From Escherichia phage HK544: DNA of 40,155 bases. Shown one piece after another: positions 493 to 23,363 of the stretch; position 1 is the first letter of the stretch, and each line of letters starts with the position of its first letter. Where the stretch lies: sequence record NC_019767.1. The stretch is one strand, 5' to 3'. A program made the position numbers and the translations under genes. The notes under the pieces were generated by a model. The model saw nothing but the letters and a program-made list of their open reading frames with translations. It was not told the origin of the DNA and made no database searches.

Positions 493-2007
493 ATGACGCG
501 AGGTGAGCGTGTAATAGCGTTCATTGAGCGCTTTTGCATCGTGCCAGAAGGCAAGCTTATCGGCCAACCTATGCGGTTGGACCCCTTTCAGAAAGATTTC
601 ATCCTGGCGGTTTACGACAATCCAGCCGGAACGGATATGGCGATCCTCTCCATCGCCCGAAAAAATGGTAAGACTGGCCTGATTGCCGGAATTCTGCTGG
701 CTCACCTGGTGGGGCCTGAAGCGGTGCAGAACACGCAGATTGTCAGCGGTGCACTCAGCCGGGAACAGGCGGCCATCGTTTTTAACCTCGCGGTGAAGAT
801 GGTTAACCTGAACCCCAAGCTGCAGGAGATTGTGCACATTACGCCCAGCGGCAAAAAGCTGATCGGCCTGCCGTGTAACGTCGAATACAAGGCTTTATCC
901 GCAGAAGGTAAGACGACGCACGGCCTTTCCCCCATTCTGGCCATTCTCGATGAAACAGGGCAGGTTAGGGGCCCGCAGGATGATTTTATCGATGCAATAA
1001 CTACGGCGCAGGGGGCTCATGAAAACCCGCTGCTAATCGTTATCAGTACGCAGGCAGCAAACGATGCTGACCTGCTTAGCATCTGGGTTGATGATGCGGT
1101 CAAATCGAAAGATCCGCACATCGTGTGCCACGTTTATGAAGCGCCAAAAGACGCTGATATCAGTAAACGCGAGTCCTGGCTGGCTGCGAACCCGGCACTG
1201 GGAACATTCAGGTCAGAAAAAGACATGGCGCGCCAGGCTGAGAAAGCTGGCCGAATGCCAAGCTTCGAAAACACCTTCCGAAACCTCAACCTCAATCAGC
1301 GCGTGTCTACCGTATCGCCGTTTATCTCCCGCAGCGTGTGGGAGCTTTGCGGAGAGATGCCGATTAACACCCCGAGGAAGTGGTACGCGGGGCTGGATCT
1401 GTCAGCCAGGAACGACTTAACGGCGCTGGTTATCGCTGGTGAAGCAGATGATGGTGTCTGGGATGTTTTCCCCTTCTTCTGGACACCGCAAAAGACTCTT
1501 GAAGAGCGAACCAAAACGGACCGAGCACCCTATGACGTTTGGGTGAGGGAGGGGCTGCTGCGCACCACGCCAGGAGCTTCGGTGGATTACTCATTCGTCG
1601 TTGCGGATATCGCTGAAATTATCGGTGATTTCGACCTTACCTCGATGGCTTTTGACCGCTGGCGCATTGACCAGTTCAGGAAGGATGCCGATGCCATTGG
1701 GCTGAGCCTCCCGCTGGTCGAGTTCGGCCAGGGCTTTAAGGATATGGGGCCAGCTGTAGACACGCTGGAGTCTCTGATGCTTAACGGGCGCGTGAGGCAT
1801 GGCATGCACCCTGTATTAACGATGTGTGCTGTGAATGCGGTGGTGGTGAAAGATGCTGCTGGCAACCGCAAGCTCGATAAATCCAAAGCAACGGGCCGTA
1901 TTGATGGCATGGTCGCAATGACAATGTCCGTTGGTGCTGCTAATGGGGAAGTTACCGAACAGGGTGGTGACTTCGACGACTTCATTTTCCGACCGCTGAG
2001 CATGTGA
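493..2007 (+). CDS. terminase large subunit
   Basis: 504-aa ORF with N-terminal ATPase P-loop-like ARKNGKTG and the conserved position TerS-TerL-portal; ends in an ATGTGATG overlap with the portal start. Confidence 0.75.
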   Translation: MTRGERVIAFIERFCIVPEGKLIGQPMRLDPFQKDFILAVYDNPAGTDMAILSIARKNGKTGLIAGILLAHLVGPEAVQNTQIVSGALSREQAAIVFNLAVKMVNLNPKLQEIVHITPSGKKLIGLPCNVEYKALSAEGKTTHGLSPILAILDETGQVRGPQDDFIDAITTAQGAHENPLLIVISTQAANDADLLSIWVDDAVKSKDPHIVCHVYEAPKDADISKRESWLAANPALGTFRSEKDMARQAEKAGRMPSFENTFRNLNLNQRVSTVSPFISRSVWELCGEMPINTPRKWYAGLDLSARNDLTALVIAGEADDGVWDVFPFFWTPQKTLEERTKTDRAPYDVWVREGLLRTTPGASVDYSFVVADIAEIIGDFDLTSMAFDRWRIDQFRKDADAIGLSLPLVEFGQGFKDMGPAVDTLESLMLNGRVRHGMHPVLTMCAVNAVVVKDAAGNRKLDKSKATGRIDGMVAMTMSVGAANGEVTEQGGDFDDFIFRPLSM

Positions 2008-20570: not shown

Positions 20571-20969
20571 ATGAGCCAGTTAACGTTACATGAATTCGCA
20601 TCGATAAATTGTAAACTGAAAGATATCAGCGACACATGGTCAGATTTATGGGTTCTTCTGCATATCTTACCGGTCGGCATTGGTAGGGTGGTCAGTCTGC
20701 GTTACGGTAACCTTATAGGCGACTCCCTTGTCGTGGAGGCGAACGGAAGATTTGAAGAGAAAATCCTATCTGTACCAGCCGTTGTTCGCCACATTGTACA
20801 GAGGCGCAGGGACAAATATCCCCACGATGTTTACGTTTTTCAGAGTCACTCCAACCGGGTCAAATTTCAGCAAAGGCCAGTAACAGTTATTGCATTCAAC
20901 CAGGCATTGAAGATTGCCTCCAAAGGAGTGACGGATAAGGTGGTGAGCAGCAAAAGTGCTCGATGGTAG
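20571..20969 (+). CDS. hypothetical protein (cargo in the tail-fibre to int interval)
   Basis: 132-aa ORF; no confident family assignment; faint resemblance to the region between box I and box II of tyrosine recombinases but without the catalytic residues. Confidence 0.3.
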   Translation: MSQLTLHEFASINCKLKDISDTWSDLWVLLHILPVGIGRVVSLRYGNLIGDSLVVEANGRFEEKILSVPAVVRHIVQRRRDKYPHDVYVFQSHSNRVKFQQRPVTVIAFNQALKIASKGVTDKVVSSKSARW

Positions 20970-21059
20970 TTCGCCATCAAGAGGTGTTTTCGGGGTGATC
21001 ACGTACATCATCAATGATGCACGTTATGGTGAGTTTGATGACTACCCGCTGAAGTGAAA

Positions 21060-21370
21060 ATTGTGTTGTGTACCAAATTGCGTACCAAACTAAAATCACA
21101 AATCATGAAACCCTTGTTCATGGCGGTTCTCAGGGGTGTTTCGCGTAATCGTGAAAGAGGAAGGTAGGTTGTTTATCTGTGTCTGTCATTGTCTAGCATT
21201 GTCCACTGTAGTTAATTAACTGTCTGTTATAACTCGAAAAACAACCATTTTTTCACCTGAGTATGTCTACGAACGTCAAATATAGTTGTTTACTGTGCGC
21301 TGTTGTCCATGTGATATTGTGTACCAGATGTGTACCAACCCATTATTTCTGAGCGTACCAAATACTATTT
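21060..21370. other. candidate attP region with integrase arm-type repeats
   Basis: Five copies of (T/C)GTACCA(A/G) at 21070, 21082, 21321, 21332 and 21355; 12-bp perfect palindrome AGTTAATTAACT at 21210-21221; CATTGTC direct repeat at 21187 and 21197; noncoding, immediately upstream of int. Confidence 0.35.
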
Positions 21371-22549
21371 ATGGCTATAAGCGACACAAAACTGCGTACT
21401 ATTTATGGTAAACCATATTCGGGCCCACAAGAAGTGGCTGATGCCGATGGCCTCAGCGTACGAATTTCACCTAAGGGGGTCATCCAGTTCCAGTACCGCT
21501 ATCGCTGGCATGGCAAGCCTAATCGACTTGGGCTTGGTCGATACCCATCCCTGTCTTTGAAGGATGCCAGACAGATCACTGCTGACTTGCGAAAGCTCTA
21601 TTTCTCAGGAACGGATCCACGCACTTATTTTGAAGAGAAGGTGGAGAACTCCATGACGGTCGCCCAGTGTCTCGACTACTGGTTCGACAACTACGTCTCT
21701 ACAACTCTCAGAGAAAAGACCCAGGCACTTTACCGATCAACGGTTATGAAGCGCATGCATGACGCCTTTCCTAATCGTCCGGCATCTTCTATCACGGTTA
21801 AGCAATGGGTTGACCTGCTTACCGAAGAAGAAAGAGATAATCCACGCCGAGCAAGGCAGGTGCTAAGTCAACTAAGATCAGCAATAAGTTGGTGCATGCG
21901 GCGTCAGTTGATAGATAGTTGCGCAATTATGAGCATCCAACCAAGGGACTTCGGCTCCCGCGCTGAGGTAGGGGAGCGGGTACTGTCGTATCACGAACTG
22001 GCTAAGATTTGGCTTGCTATTGAAAGAAGCCGTGCGTCTACGTCAAATAAGCTCCTTCATCAGATGCTTATGCTGTGGGGGTCGAGGCTCTCAGAGCTTA
22101 GGCTGGCAACAAAGACAGAATTTGACCTGCTGGACAACGTATGGACCGTACCGAAAGAGCATAGCAAGATGGGTAATGTTATCCGCCGTCCAATCTTCGA
22201 ACAAATTAAGCCTTTTCTCGAAAAGGCCATGACAACATACAATGATGTTCTTTTCCCTGGAGAAGACATAAACAAACCGATCAGCATCGCTGCAGCCAAC
22301 CGATTCGTAAATAGAATAAGGGGAGGGATGGACATAGGTTACTGGCGAACACATGATTTCAGAAGAACGCTTGTTACACGGCTGTCCGAGATGAATGTCG
22401 AGCCCCATGTTACTGAGCGAATGCTCGGTCATGAACTTGGCGGGATAATGTCCGTGTACAATAAACACGACTGGATAGAGGCTCAGCGCAAAGCGTATGA
22501 GCTTCACGCTGATAAATTGTTCTGGCACATCAGGAACATTTCTGGTTAA
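21371..22549 (+). CDS. int: tyrosine site-specific integrase
   Basis: 392 aa; box II HDFRRT, MLGH and probable catalytic Tyr in SVYNKHDW near the C-terminus. Confidence 0.85.
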   Translation: MAISDTKLRTIYGKPYSGPQEVADADGLSVRISPKGVIQFQYRYRWHGKPNRLGLGRYPSLSLKDARQITADLRKLYFSGTDPRTYFEEKVENSMTVAQCLDYWFDNYVSTTLREKTQALYRSTVMKRMHDAFPNRPASSITVKQWVDLLTEEERDNPRRARQVLSQLRSAISWCMRRQLIDSCAIMSIQPRDFGSRAEVGERVLSYHELAKIWLAIERSRASTSNKLLHQMLMLWGSRLSELRLATKTEFDLLDNVWTVPKEHSKMGNVIRRPIFEQIKPFLEKAMTTYNDVLFPGEDINKPISIAAANRFVNRIRGGMDIGYWRTHDFRRTLVTRLSEMNVEPHVTERMLGHELGGIMSVYNKHDWIEAQRKAYELHADKLFWHIRNISG

Positions 22550-22721
22550 CGCCACCGTTAAGAATCCACCCTTCAACAGCTTCACGAAGGTATGATTTGG
22601 GGTGGGTTCTGACTGGCTTCGGAAATCCGTGCCGTTTGGTATAGTTCCAGATTGTCTGACGTGATGAAACACCGAGCTTGTTCATCACTTCTTTCTCAGG
22701 AATCAGGCTGGTATCGGTCAT
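22530..22721 (-). CDS. xis: AlpA-family DNA-binding protein / putative excisionase
   Basis: 63 aa with winged-helix-like segment KEVMNKLGVSSRQTIWNYTKRHGFPKP; convergent with int and overlapping its 3' end by 20 nt. Confidence 0.6.
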   Translation of the reverse strand: MTDTSLIPEKEVMNKLGVSSRQTIWNYTKRHGFPKPVRTHPKSYLREAVEGWILNGGVNQKCS

Positions 22722-22764
22722 CTTAATTCTCCAGGCAAAAAGAAACCGCCATATAGCGGCTCTA

Positions 22765-22884
22765 TCAGATATGTACAGGCCTCATCGAGTGTGAGGCGTT
22801 AGTCATTGCGTAGCTCGCTGATTCTTCTGTAAGTCTGTGGTGCTTTGCTATCTCACGCAGTGCCTGATAGTCAATCTTGCTCAC
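22765..22884 (-). CDS. small ORF (39 aa), GTG start
   Basis: SD GGAGG, GTG start overlapping the stop of the upstream 160-aa gene; below the ORF-track size cutoff. Confidence 0.25.
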   Translation of the reverse strand: MSKIDYQALREIAKHHRLTEESASYAMTNASHSMRPVHI

Positions 22885-23363
22885 TGGTTGCCTCCTTTGC
22901 GAAGCTGGGCGGCGAACAAACGTACACTAGACGCTTCACTGTGTAGAAACTTAACGGCATAATCAAAACCACATCGTTCTGCGTCGTCTGCTGCGTTGTC
23001 GAGGTTATCTGCGTACATCTCTACCCCCTGCGCCCGTACTTCAGCCAGGAAAGCATCGGTGGCTGGGGTTTCAGTAACATCACCTTCCCATTCGCTAAAC
23101 TCCTCACGACAAAAGTCATTAAATTCCTTCTCAGATTGCTTAAGCGAGGTATTTTCAGCAGCCATCTTCGCGCACTTGGCCTCAAGGTTATCAATCGTGA
23201 TTCCAGCAGAACGACACTCCCGCAACGCCGTTTCCAGTTTTGATTCAAGTTCACCGAACTTACGGACAAGATATTCAGCGTTTGTTTCGTTAACATTTAA
23301 ATCTCGGGGGATGCATTTACCTTTCAGAAAACCATCCATCTCAATTAGTGACATTTGTTTCAT
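22881..23363 (-). CDS. hypothetical early-left protein
   Basis: 160 aa from the ATG that forms an ATGA overlap with the upstream gene stop; acidic; no family recognised. Confidence 0.4.

What the first reader, a model, noticed from the sequence alone, without database searches (positions are those of the whole stretch)
21060..21370. Candidate attP with repeated GTACCA arm motifs upstream of a rightward-transcribed integrase
The 300-bp noncoding stretch before int carries five copies of (T/C)GTACCA(A/G) in two clusters (21070 and 21082; 21321, 21332 and 21355) flanking a region with a 12-bp perfect palindrome (AGTTAATTAACT, 21210-21221) and CATTGTC direct repeats. That looks like arm-type integrase sites around a core. 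The integrase is transcribed rightward and overlaps a convergent AlpA-like xis by 20 nt, which is opposite to the lambda arrangement.
Basis: partly seen in the sequence, partly recalled or inferred. Interest (0 to 1): 0.55.

Follow-up and report, generated by a model that had tools for sequence, protein, structure and literature searches.

The report
Known sbcB-type phage attachment site
The stretch is the attachment site (attP) of an HK97-like coliphage that inserts into the start of the host sbcB gene; the site is already annotated in near-identical phages, and what is new here is comparative evidence that the GTACCA repeats are where the integrase grips the arms of the site.

Summary
The region is 98% identical to the att-int-xis module of phages mEp234, HK140, Sf101 and the Stx2c phages 2851 and 1717.

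**Core.** The published 13-bp core CGTAATCGTGAAA lies at 21144-21156. It is not at the palindrome or the CATTGTC repeats. About 580 complete E. coli genomes carry the prophage with junctions exactly there, inside the 5' end of sbcB and not in a tRNA.

**Repeats.** The five TG(T/C)GTACCA(A/G)A repeats flank this core: two lie about 60-75 bp to its left and three about 165-200 bp to its right. Relatives with 42-74% identical integrases keep the same layout at the same distances from the int start. Of 79 prophage loci, 60 keep the three int-proximal sites; all four intact relative attP regions keep the distal pair. The sequence in between is not conserved. The motif changes with integrase clade: GTACC, GTACA, or GTCC in Vibrionaceae. 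I read them as arm-type integrase sites P1, P2, P'1, P'2 and P'3. Binding itself is untested.

**Other features.** The 12-bp palindrome is at chance level. The inverted int with a convergent xis matches the studied relative Φ24B.

**In passing.** The phage supplies a new 5' end for sbcB.

The parts
20990..21057 (+). Left mosaic boundary of the att-int-xis module; remnant of the 3' end of a umuD-like gene
   Evidence: Similarity to mEp234, HK140 and Sf101 starts at about 20988-20994. In HK140 the corresponding stretch is the end of an annotated UmuD-like CDS.
21067..21078 (+). P1, predicted arm-type Int site (TGTGTACCAAAT)
   Evidence: A GTAC pair 12 bp apart, 60-80 bp left of the core, is present in all four relative phages with an intact attP, and these columns are invariant in alignment A1.
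21079..21090 (+). P2, predicted arm-type Int site (TGCGTACCAAAC)
   Evidence: Same as P1.
21144..21156 (.). attP core: 13 bp identical to attB in sbcB (CGTAATCGTGAAA); the strand exchange happens somewhere inside it
   Evidence: Unique in the window. Equals the annotated 13-bp duplication of prophage 1717 and the 'type 2851' attachment site of mEp234. Matches in E. coli genomes start at 21144 next to sbcB. Four-way att alignment. Published for 2851 and Sf101 (PMC4159516).
21144..21189 (-). Phage-borne replacement 5' end of sbcB (MTDTDKQPTFLFHDY; start codon is the reverse complement of 21187-21189); 21157-21173 is also 13/17 identical to attB
   Evidence: In lysogen L004 the annotated sbcB CDS runs 46 nt into phage DNA. 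attR-side matches extend to 21173. An NTG start is kept at this column in 8 of 10 aligned attL/attP sequences, and an intact N-terminal ORF is kept in 29 loci.
21187..21203 (+). Two CATTGTC copies 10 bp apart; the first overlaps the sbcB' start codon, the second carries a conserved GTCCA
   Evidence: GT[TC]C[AG] at -120 from P'1 in 18 of 54 loci.
21210..21221 (.). 12-bp perfect palindrome AGTTAATTAACT; no evidence of function as a palindrome
   Evidence: 8 such palindromes in the window against 10.6 expected. Only ...TTAAC is conserved in sbcB-targeting relatives.
21275..21309 (+). Candidate excisionase (RDF) site array: GTnnn repeats phased at 10 bp, ending in the conserved GTCCA at 21305-21309 (hypothesis)
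   Evidence: GT[TC]CA is strand-biased (86 against 7) in P' arms and sits at -16 from P'1 in 39 of 54 loci. It resembles the TorI sites GTTCG/GTCCG next to the intS promoter in KplE1. Not tested.
21310..21318 (+). Candidate extended -10 of the int promoter (TGTGATATT); the predicted transcript start falls inside P'1 (inferred)
   Evidence: TGnnATAyT is conserved directly 5' of P'1 in eight of the ten aligned attL/attP sequences. The consensus scan found no standard sigma-70 site here. In Φ24B the mapped start lies between P'2 and P'3.
21318..21329 (+). P'1, predicted arm-type Int site (TGTGTACCAGAT)
   Evidence: A GTAC triple at about -50/-39/-15 from the int start is found in 60 of 79 related loci. 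In a control scan, 58 of the 61 triples in 540 kb lie at that position.
21329..21340 (+). P'2, predicted arm-type Int site (TGTGTACCAACC)
   Evidence: Same as P'1.
21352..21363 (+). P'3, predicted arm-type Int site (AGCGTACCAAAT), 8 nt before the int start codon
   Evidence: Same as P'1.
21371..22549 (+). int: tyrosine integrase with an N-terminal arm-binding domain
   Evidence: Pfam Arm-DNA-bind_3 (residues 4-85, E 8e-18) and Phage_integrase (E 1e-16). PHROG 1 integrase. 98-99% identical to the integrases of phages 2851, mEp234 and EC.P3.
22530..22721 (-). xis: 63-aa AlpA/excisionase-like winged-helix protein, convergent with int, 20-nt overlap
   Evidence: PHROG 66 'excisionase and transcriptional regulator', E 2e-8. 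No Pfam hit at E <= 0.001. Annotated as AlpA family in mEp234, HK140 and SEN34. The mEp234 record calls it similar to the Φ24B excisionase, which was tested experimentally (PMC3064807).
22743..22762 (-). Terminator-like hairpin just upstream of xis on the leftward transcript
   Evidence: The same element is annotated as a rho-independent terminator in HK140.

Best explanation
Window 21067-21363 is the attP of a phage-2851-type (sbcB-targeting) site-specific recombination module, carried here by an HK97-like lambdoid phage.

**Shown**
- The crossover happens within the 13-bp core CGTAATCGTGAAA (21144-21156), which is identical to codons 13-16 of host sbcB.
- Integration splits attP into two junctions. 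attL is sbcB body + core + P' arm + int. attR is P arm + core + the old sbcB 5' end.
- The phage replaces the first 15 codons of sbcB.

**Inferred from conservation**
- The five direct repeats TG(T/C)GTACCA(A/G)A are arm-type sites for the N-terminal Arm-DNA-bind_3 domain of Int.
- P1 and P2 lie 55-75 bp left of the core. P'1, P'2 and P'3 lie 165-210 bp to its right.
- One Int molecule would bridge an arm site and a core site, folding attP into an intasome as in lambda.

**Inferred by analogy with KplE1 and Φ24B**
- The int promoter lies inside the P' arm. My candidate is an extended -10 at 21310-21318.
- Int bound at P'1 and P'2 would then repress its own gene.
- int is uncoupled from pL, while xis is reached only by the leftward early transcript, through a terminator.
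For: **The site is the known attP**
- The region is 98% identical to mEp234, HK140, Sf101, 2851 and 1717. Their records annotate this attP and the 13-bp duplication.
- In 586 of 5426 complete E. coli genomes the region matches, and in the sampled rows the match breaks exactly at 21144 next to sbcB.
- The other prophage end carries 20994-21156 and beyond.
- The attP/attB/attL/attR alignment is fully consistent with crossover in this core.
- The Sf101 paper gives the same 13 bp and sbcB, with PCR confirmation.

**Int is the right kind of enzyme**
- It has an arm-binding N-domain and a catalytic domain.

**The repeats behave like arm sites**
- They are 10-12 nt, all in the same orientation, and enriched.
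- Four phages with intact attP and 49-61% identical Int have GTAC motifs at the same offsets. 20 of the 46 invariant alignment columns are the five GTAC tetramers.
- 60 of 79 prophage loci from other species (Int 42-98% identical) have the P' triple, with spacing 11 and then mostly 22-25, at about -50/-39/-15.
- In a control scan of 540 kb, 58 of 61 such triples lie at that spot.
- The motif tracks the Int clade. GTACC occurs only in some of the close sbcB-targeting relatives; GTACA occurs elsewhere. The Vibrionaceae clade, whose N-terminal sequence differs, has TG(T/C)GTCC(A/T)AA in the same layout.

**Regulation**
- The Φ24B relative has an independently mapped int promoter inside this arm, and Int and Xis functions validated by experiment.
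Against: - No binding or recombination data exist for these repeats. I found no paper that maps arm sites for this integrase family, and the 2020 Φ24B paper says the Int-binding sequences in attP are still unknown.
- Conservation of the P' triple at a fixed distance from the int start could partly reflect promoter or leader function rather than recombination.
- The P arm pair could be checked in only five phage-form genomes.
- No single N-domain residue cleanly separates GTACC users from GTACA users.
- No IHF consensus site lies between the arms and the core, so how the 160-bp P' arm is bent is unknown. Φ24B integrates without IHF.
- The promoter scan found no standard sigma-70 site, so the autoregulation step rests on analogy.
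Confidence: 0.82

Rival explanations
1. The GTACCA repeats are operator sites for a regulator of int (the AlpA-like Xis, or Int acting only as a repressor). They would control int transcription or translation and would not be needed to assemble the recombination complex.
For: - P'1-P'3 sit over the likely int promoter and leader.
- P'3 ends 8 nt before the start codon.
- Their distance to the ATG is conserved in 60 loci.
- In KplE1 the P' sites and RDF sites overlap the intS promoter and repress it.
Against: - Two further copies lie about 250 bp away on the far side of the core, where they end up at the opposite prophage end (attR). That makes no sense for an int operator. The pair is kept in all five intact attP sequences.
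- The count and layout (2 + 3) match lambda-type arm sites.
- RDF sites in the studied analogue have a different short motif (GTTCG/GTCCG). A separate strand-biased GT[TC]CA motif exists here that fits that role better.
- Regulation and arm binding are not mutually exclusive.
Confidence: 0.1
2. One reading: the crossover core lies in the palindrome/CATTGTC region (21187-21221).
For: Only position: it lies between the two repeat clusters, and a palindrome superficially resembles inverted core-type sites.
Against: - Prophage junctions in about 580 genomes and in annotated prophage records map to 21144-21156.
- 21157 onward is phage-specific sequence present at attL only.
- The palindrome is at chance frequency and is not conserved.
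Confidence: 0.01
3. The repeats are a chance or purely compositional feature with no function.
For: The motif was defined after inspecting the sequence. GTAC itself occurs 99 times in the window.
Against: - Enrichment and clustering.
- Uniqueness of the spaced patterns in the window.
- Conservation of position across about 60 diverged loci while the flanking sequence drifts.
Confidence: 0.01

Closest known systems
attP of Stx2c phage 2851 / phage 1717 / Sf101 / mEp234 / HK140 (sbcB integration, 'type 2851' attachment site)
   Same: Same site. About 98% DNA identity across attP-int-xis, the same 13-bp core CGTAATCGTGAAA, Int 98-99% identical to those of 2851, mEp234 and EC.P3, and the same sbcB target.
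   Different: Nothing of substance. The module sits in a different mosaic phage backbone, closest to HK446, mEp234 and HK97. The records and the papers I could read give only the core or a rough 147-bp range. They do not give arm sites.
Φ24B (vB_EcoP_24B) Int/Xis/attP system
   Same: Same integrase family. L009 is 98% identical to the Φ24B int region, and its Int is about 57% identical to the window's. int is inverted relative to lambda and has its own promoter. A small xis sits at the 3' end of int, convergent with it. Both functions were shown experimentally. The layout of two plus three GTAC sites is the same.
   Different: The core and target differ: the first 24 nt of argW instead of sbcB codons 13-16. 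The arm motif is GTACA, not GTACC. The mapped int start is between P'2 and P'3, whereas the conserved extended -10 of the sbcB clade lies 5' of P'1. Φ24B is reported as promiscuous and IHF-independent; neither was examined here.
KplE1 (CPS-53) IntS/TorI recombination module, also in HK620 and Sf6
   Same: It works the same way. attL overlaps the int promoter, int is transcribed away from att, the RDF is transcriptionally uncoupled, and Int and the RDF bind P' and I sites over the promoter and repress int.
   Different: IntS is only 21% identical. Its arm sites share TAAA, not GTAC. It targets the 3' end of argW. torI lies on the other side of attP rather than convergent with int.
Lambda attP (P1, P2 / COC' / P'1-P'3)
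   Same: A heterobivalent Int, a short core identical to attB, and two arm sites on one side with three on the other.
   Different: int points away from attP. The long arm is on the int side. No IHF consensus sites were found. The arm motif and the Int N-domain family (Arm-DNA-bind_3, P4-like) differ. The target is inside a gene.

Membership tests
Phage 2851-type attP (sbcB) | 13-bp core CGTAATCGTGAAA upstream of int, identical to a stretch of sbcB | tested here: met
   Unique at 21144-21156. Identical in K-12 sbcB and at both prophage junctions.
Phage 2851-type attP (sbcB) | Cognate integrase essentially identical to the Int of 2851, mEp234 and Sf101 | tested here: met
   98-99% amino-acid identity by tblastn to 2851-type Stx phages, mEp234 and EC.P3. 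97.5-98.8% DNA identity across the module, including Sf101.
Phage 2851-type attP (sbcB) | Prophages with this module are found in sbcB with the core duplicated | tested here: met
   586 of 5426 E. coli genomes match. In the sampled rows the attL match starts at 21144 beside sbcB, and attR carries the left arm.
Lambda-type (heterobivalent tyrosine integrase) attP | Adjacent tyrosine recombinase with a separate N-terminal arm-binding domain | tested here: met
   Pfam Arm-DNA-bind_3 plus Phage_integrase.
Lambda-type (heterobivalent tyrosine integrase) attP | Repeated arm motifs, unlike the core, on both sides of the core | tested here: met
   Two plus three direct repeats. Conserved in position across relatives and co-varying with Int clade.
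Lambda-type (heterobivalent tyrosine integrase) attP | The Int N-domain binds the arm repeats, and they are required for recombination | not testable with these tools
   Needs gel shift or footprinting and mutant attP assays. No published data found.
Lambda-type (heterobivalent tyrosine integrase) attP | Sites for a bending protein (IHF) between the arms and the core | tested here: inconclusive
   With up to one mismatch to WATCAANNNNTTR, the only hit in attP overlaps P'2, and hits are not enriched in the window. The Φ24B relative recombines without IHF.
Lambda-type (heterobivalent tyrosine integrase) attP | Inverted core-type sites flanking a 6-8 bp overlap | tested here: inconclusive
   By eye, attB has GTTTC-N8-GAAAC around GTAATCGT. 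In attP the left half is displaced by 2 bp (sequences). Cleavage positions are unknown.
KplE1-type recombination module (Panis et al. 2010) | int transcribed away from att, so that attL overlaps the int promoter; RDF uncoupled from int | tested here: met
   Gene order and orientation. The promoter itself is only inferred.
KplE1-type recombination module (Panis et al. 2010) | Homology to IntS/TorI and their binding motifs | tested here: not met
   IntS is 21% identical. Its arm motif contains TAAA, and torI is placed differently. It is an analogue, not a member.
Φ24B/2851 integrase family | Int homology with the conserved N-terminus MA(I/L)SDTKLR and a convergent xis overlapping the int 3' end | tested here: met
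   49-61% identity to phage relatives, and an N-terminus kept with few substitutions in the GTAC-type loci. Overlaps of 17-23 nt in SEN34, phi345 and Brookers. L009 is 98% identical to the Φ24B int region.

The most novel reading that the evidence does not exclude
The Φ24B/2851 integrase family may be specialised for the 5' ends of host genes, with the P' arm of attP doubling as a replacement promoter and 5' segment for the target.

- The targets seen are sbcB codons 13-16 and the first 24 nt of tRNA-Arg(CCU).
- In lysogens, expression of exonuclease I or of argW would then run from DNA that is also bound by Int and Xis and that sits back to back with the int promoter.
- Host gene output would be coupled to the state of the prophage.
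- The replacement of the 5' end is shown here. The promoter and the coupling are not.
Probability: 0.3. Interest if true: 0.55.

Novelty: already known. Interest (0 to 1): 0.27.

Why it matters
As an attP call it adds nothing. The site, its core and its sbcB target are published and are annotated in near-identical phages, including clinically important Stx2c phages.

The modest gain is a concrete, testable map of five arm-type sites, plus a candidate int promoter and candidate Xis sites. The family includes Φ24B, whose authors state that the Int-binding sequences in attP are still unknown. The clade-specific motif variants (GTACC, GTACA, GTCC) give a natural set of specificity swaps for testing how P4-like Arm-DNA-bind_3 domains read DNA.

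The 5'-end replacement of sbcB and argW may deserve a separate look. Most elements that integrate within genes restore a 3' end; this family has to bring a promoter.

Tried and rejected
- **IHF sites.** WATCAANNNNTTR with up to one mismatch gave no convincing site in attP and no enrichment in the window.
- **Sigma-70 promoter scan of 20900-22900.** Nothing in the attP region on either strand. My extended -10 candidate comes only from conservation in A3.
- **Palindrome as a functional element.** Rejected on frequency and lack of conservation.
- **A specificity-determining residue.** No column of the Int N-domain cleanly separates GTACC from GTACA users. Position 39 (Q/R/L/N against mostly T/S/A) is suggestive only.
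- **KplE1 as a homologue.** Rejected: 21% identity and different motifs.
- **Literature.** The original phage 2851 paper (PMC2583581) is not held. Searches for arm sites of this family found nothing relevant.
- **Pfam on the 63-aa Xis.** No hit at E <= 0.001. PHROGs did give an excisionase family.
- **A coordinate error of mine.** The 'motif starts' offsets printed are miscomputed and are not used. Only the ORF translations are.

Full report
**What is in the sequence.**
- The window is a complete HK97-like lambdoid genome, collinear from base 1 with HK446, mEp234 and HK97.
- The flagged stretch lies between a 132-aa ORF of unknown function (20571-20969) and int (21371-22549, +).
  - five (T/C)GTACCA(A/G), all on the + strand;
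  - the palindrome at 21210-21221 and CATTGTC at 21187 and 21197;
  - a 63-aa xis-like ORF (22721-22530, -) overlapping the end of int by 20 nt.
- The repeat is longer than reported: TG(T/C)GTACCA(A/G)A, 10-12 nt.
- It is enriched: 9 matches in the window against 2.9 in shuffles, five of them within 293 bp.
- The palindrome is not enriched: 8 in the window against 10.6 expected.

**It is an attP, and a known one.**
- 20990-22800 is 97.5-98.8% identical to mEp234, HK140, Sf101, EC.P3, E212 and the Stx phages 2851 and 1717.
- mEp234's record marks a 13-bp 'prophage attachment site (type 2851)'. HK140's record marks a 147-bp 'putative attP'. Prophage 1717's record marks a 13-bp 'duplication due to insertion'.
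- All three correspond to CGTAATCGTGAAA, which is unique in the window at 21144-21156.
- The Sf101 paper reports the same 13 bp and confirms insertion in the 5' end of sbcB by PCR, citing Strauch et al. 2008 for phage 2851 (PMC4159516).

**Junction mapping.**
- Against 5426 complete E. coli genomes, 586 match. In the sampled rows the match starts exactly at 21144, next to sbcB and followed by the integrase.
- 565 genomes carry the left part (20994 to about 21173) at a second place.
- I aligned attP (window), attL (L004), attR (L005) and the empty K-12 site (L006). The result is the textbook pattern, with perfect identity only in the 13-bp core.

**The repeats as arm-type sites.**
- Int has a P4-like Arm-DNA-bind_3 N-domain and a catalytic domain.
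- The repeats flank the real core. P1 and P2 lie 55-75 bp to the left. P'1-P'3 lie 165-210 bp to the right, ending 8 nt before the int ATG.
- I used relatives as a footprinting experiment. The details:
  - Four phages with intact attP and 49-61% identical Int are SEN34, phi345/P27, Proteus Brookers and Cronobacter ENT39118. All have GTAC motifs at about -300 and -288, and at about -50, -39 and -16 from the int start.
  - The alignment of these regions is otherwise poor (59% mean column identity). 20 of its 46 invariant columns are these five tetramers.
  - A scan of one genome per species returned 80 prophage loci with Int 42-98% identical.
  - 60 of the 79 usable loci have the P' triple, with spacing 11 and then mostly 22-25 bp.
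  - Across 540 kb of these loci, both strands, 58 of 61 such triples lie at that position.
  - The family consensus is TTGnGTAC(A/C)nAAT.
  - The GTACC form is confined to some of the sbcB-targeting relatives (E. coli, Buttiauxella, Pantoea, Tatumella; Int 66-98% identical). Erwinia and Chimaeribacter, at 72-73%, use GTACA.
  - The Vibrionaceae clade has a different Int N-terminus: M(A/S)(I/L)(T/L)D(K/R)QL... and RCRF in place of RYRW. It has no GTAC. It carries three TG(T/C)GTCC(A/T)AA in the same layout.
- Conserved position, drifting flanks and a motif that changes with the protein clade are what arm-type sites should show. Binding remains untested, and I found no paper that maps these sites.

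**Layout and regulation.**
- int points away from attP. xis keeps the lambda direction and lies just downstream of a terminator-like hairpin, which HK140's record annotates as a terminator.
- The int/xis overlap is kept in SEN34, phi345 and Brookers.
- This is the arrangement described for Φ24B. There the inverted int has its own CI-independent promoter, and the small convergent ORF was shown to be the excisionase (PMC3064807).
- Φ24B's int region is 98% identical to my locus L009, so Φ24B is a family member with about 57% Int identity.
- Its 5' RACE start is 46 bp after the old GTG start, which is about -29 from the TTG. That falls between P'2 and P'3.
- In the sbcB clade a conserved TGnnATAyT sits directly 5' of P'1, at window 21310-21318. 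I propose it as an extended -10. Int bound at P'1 and P'2 would then repress int, as shown for IntS in KplE1 (PMC2951348). This step is inference, and the consensus promoter scan found nothing.
- A strand-biased GT(T/C)CA motif peaks at -16 and -120 from P'1, which is window 21305 and 21201. It resembles the TorI sites of KplE1 and is my candidate for Xis binding. Confidence is low.
- No IHF site was found. Φ24B does not need IHF.

**Comparison and verdict.**
- The site is a member of the 2851-type attP; in practice it is the same site.
- Its Int belongs to the Φ24B/2851 family.
- It works like lambda attP (two plus three arm sites) and like the KplE1 module (promoter inside attL), but it is homologous to neither (IntS 21% identical).
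- The attP call is therefore correct but already known.
- The core assignment and the tRNA guess were wrong.
- The arm-site reading is well supported comparatively and appears to be undocumented.

**Noticed along the way.** The phage carries a substitute 5' end for its target gene. 21189-21144 (minus strand) encodes MTDTDKQPTFLFHDY, against MMNDGKQQSTFLFHDY in K-12. Lysogens have an intact annotated sbcB that starts in phage DNA. The same holds in 29 related loci from several genera. At least 18 other loci have a complete tRNA-Arg(CCU) divergent from int, with its 5' end on the phage side.

Noticed in passing
window 21144-21189 (minus strand); L004 1501-1546; L013-L035, L058, L062-L065, L083-L089: The phage replaces the first 15 codons of sbcB, and necessarily its promoter. 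Lysogens encode MTDTDKQPTFLFHDY... instead of MMNDGKQQSTFLFHDY..., and sbcB is annotated as intact. 29 of 79 related prophage loci in Enterobacterales, Orbaceae and Aeromonas show the same in-frame replacement with an ATG, GTG or TTG start. Where the phage-borne sbcB promoter lies, somewhere in 21190-21300 on the minus strand, is unknown.
   Followed up: partly
L036-L064 (about 930-1008, minus strand); L009 about 479-505: A sister clade that includes Φ24B, P27 and the Stx2a phages at argW has a complete tRNA-Arg(CCU) divergent from int, about 195 bp upstream, with its 5' end on the phage side. The phage-form attP carries the first 24 nt of argW. So this integrase family targets 5' ends, unlike the usual 3'-end targeting of tRNA genes.
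   Followed up: partly
L066-L082, L092 (110 bp upstream of int): Vibrionaceae relatives (Int 45-48% identical) carry three TG(T/C)GTCC(A/T)AA repeats, spaced 12 and then 21-22 bp, in place of the GTAC sites. Their Int N-terminus differs to match. This is a natural specificity variant.
   Followed up: partly
window 22743-22762 (minus strand): A terminator-like hairpin with a T-run lies 12-20 nt upstream of the xis start on the leftward transcript. HK140's record annotates it as rho-independent. This suggests that xis needs antiterminated pL transcription.
   Followed up: no
window 20990-21057: The last 23 or so codons of a umuD-like gene, intact in HK140, survive as a remnant at the left edge of the att-int-xis module. 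This marks a mosaic junction.
   Followed up: no
window 21201-21205 and 21305-21309; P' arms of 54 related loci: GT(T/C)CA is strongly strand-biased (86 against 7) and sits at fixed offsets from P'1: -16 in 39 of 54 loci and -120 in 11 of 54 (18 of 54 counting GT[TC]CG). In SEN34-type loci the -16 element reads GTACA, so it could be a degenerate fourth arm site rather than an Xis site.
   Followed up: partly
window 20571-20969: A 132-aa ORF between the tail-fibre genes and attP matches PHROG 19751 (unknown function, E 3e-69) and has no Pfam domain. It is probably a lysogenic-conversion 'moron' position.
   Followed up: no
window 21340-21370 and the equivalent positions in relatives: None of the aligned relatives has a recognisable Shine-Dalgarno sequence before the int start. 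P'3 occupies that space. This could mean weak translation, or translation regulated by Int.
   Followed up: no
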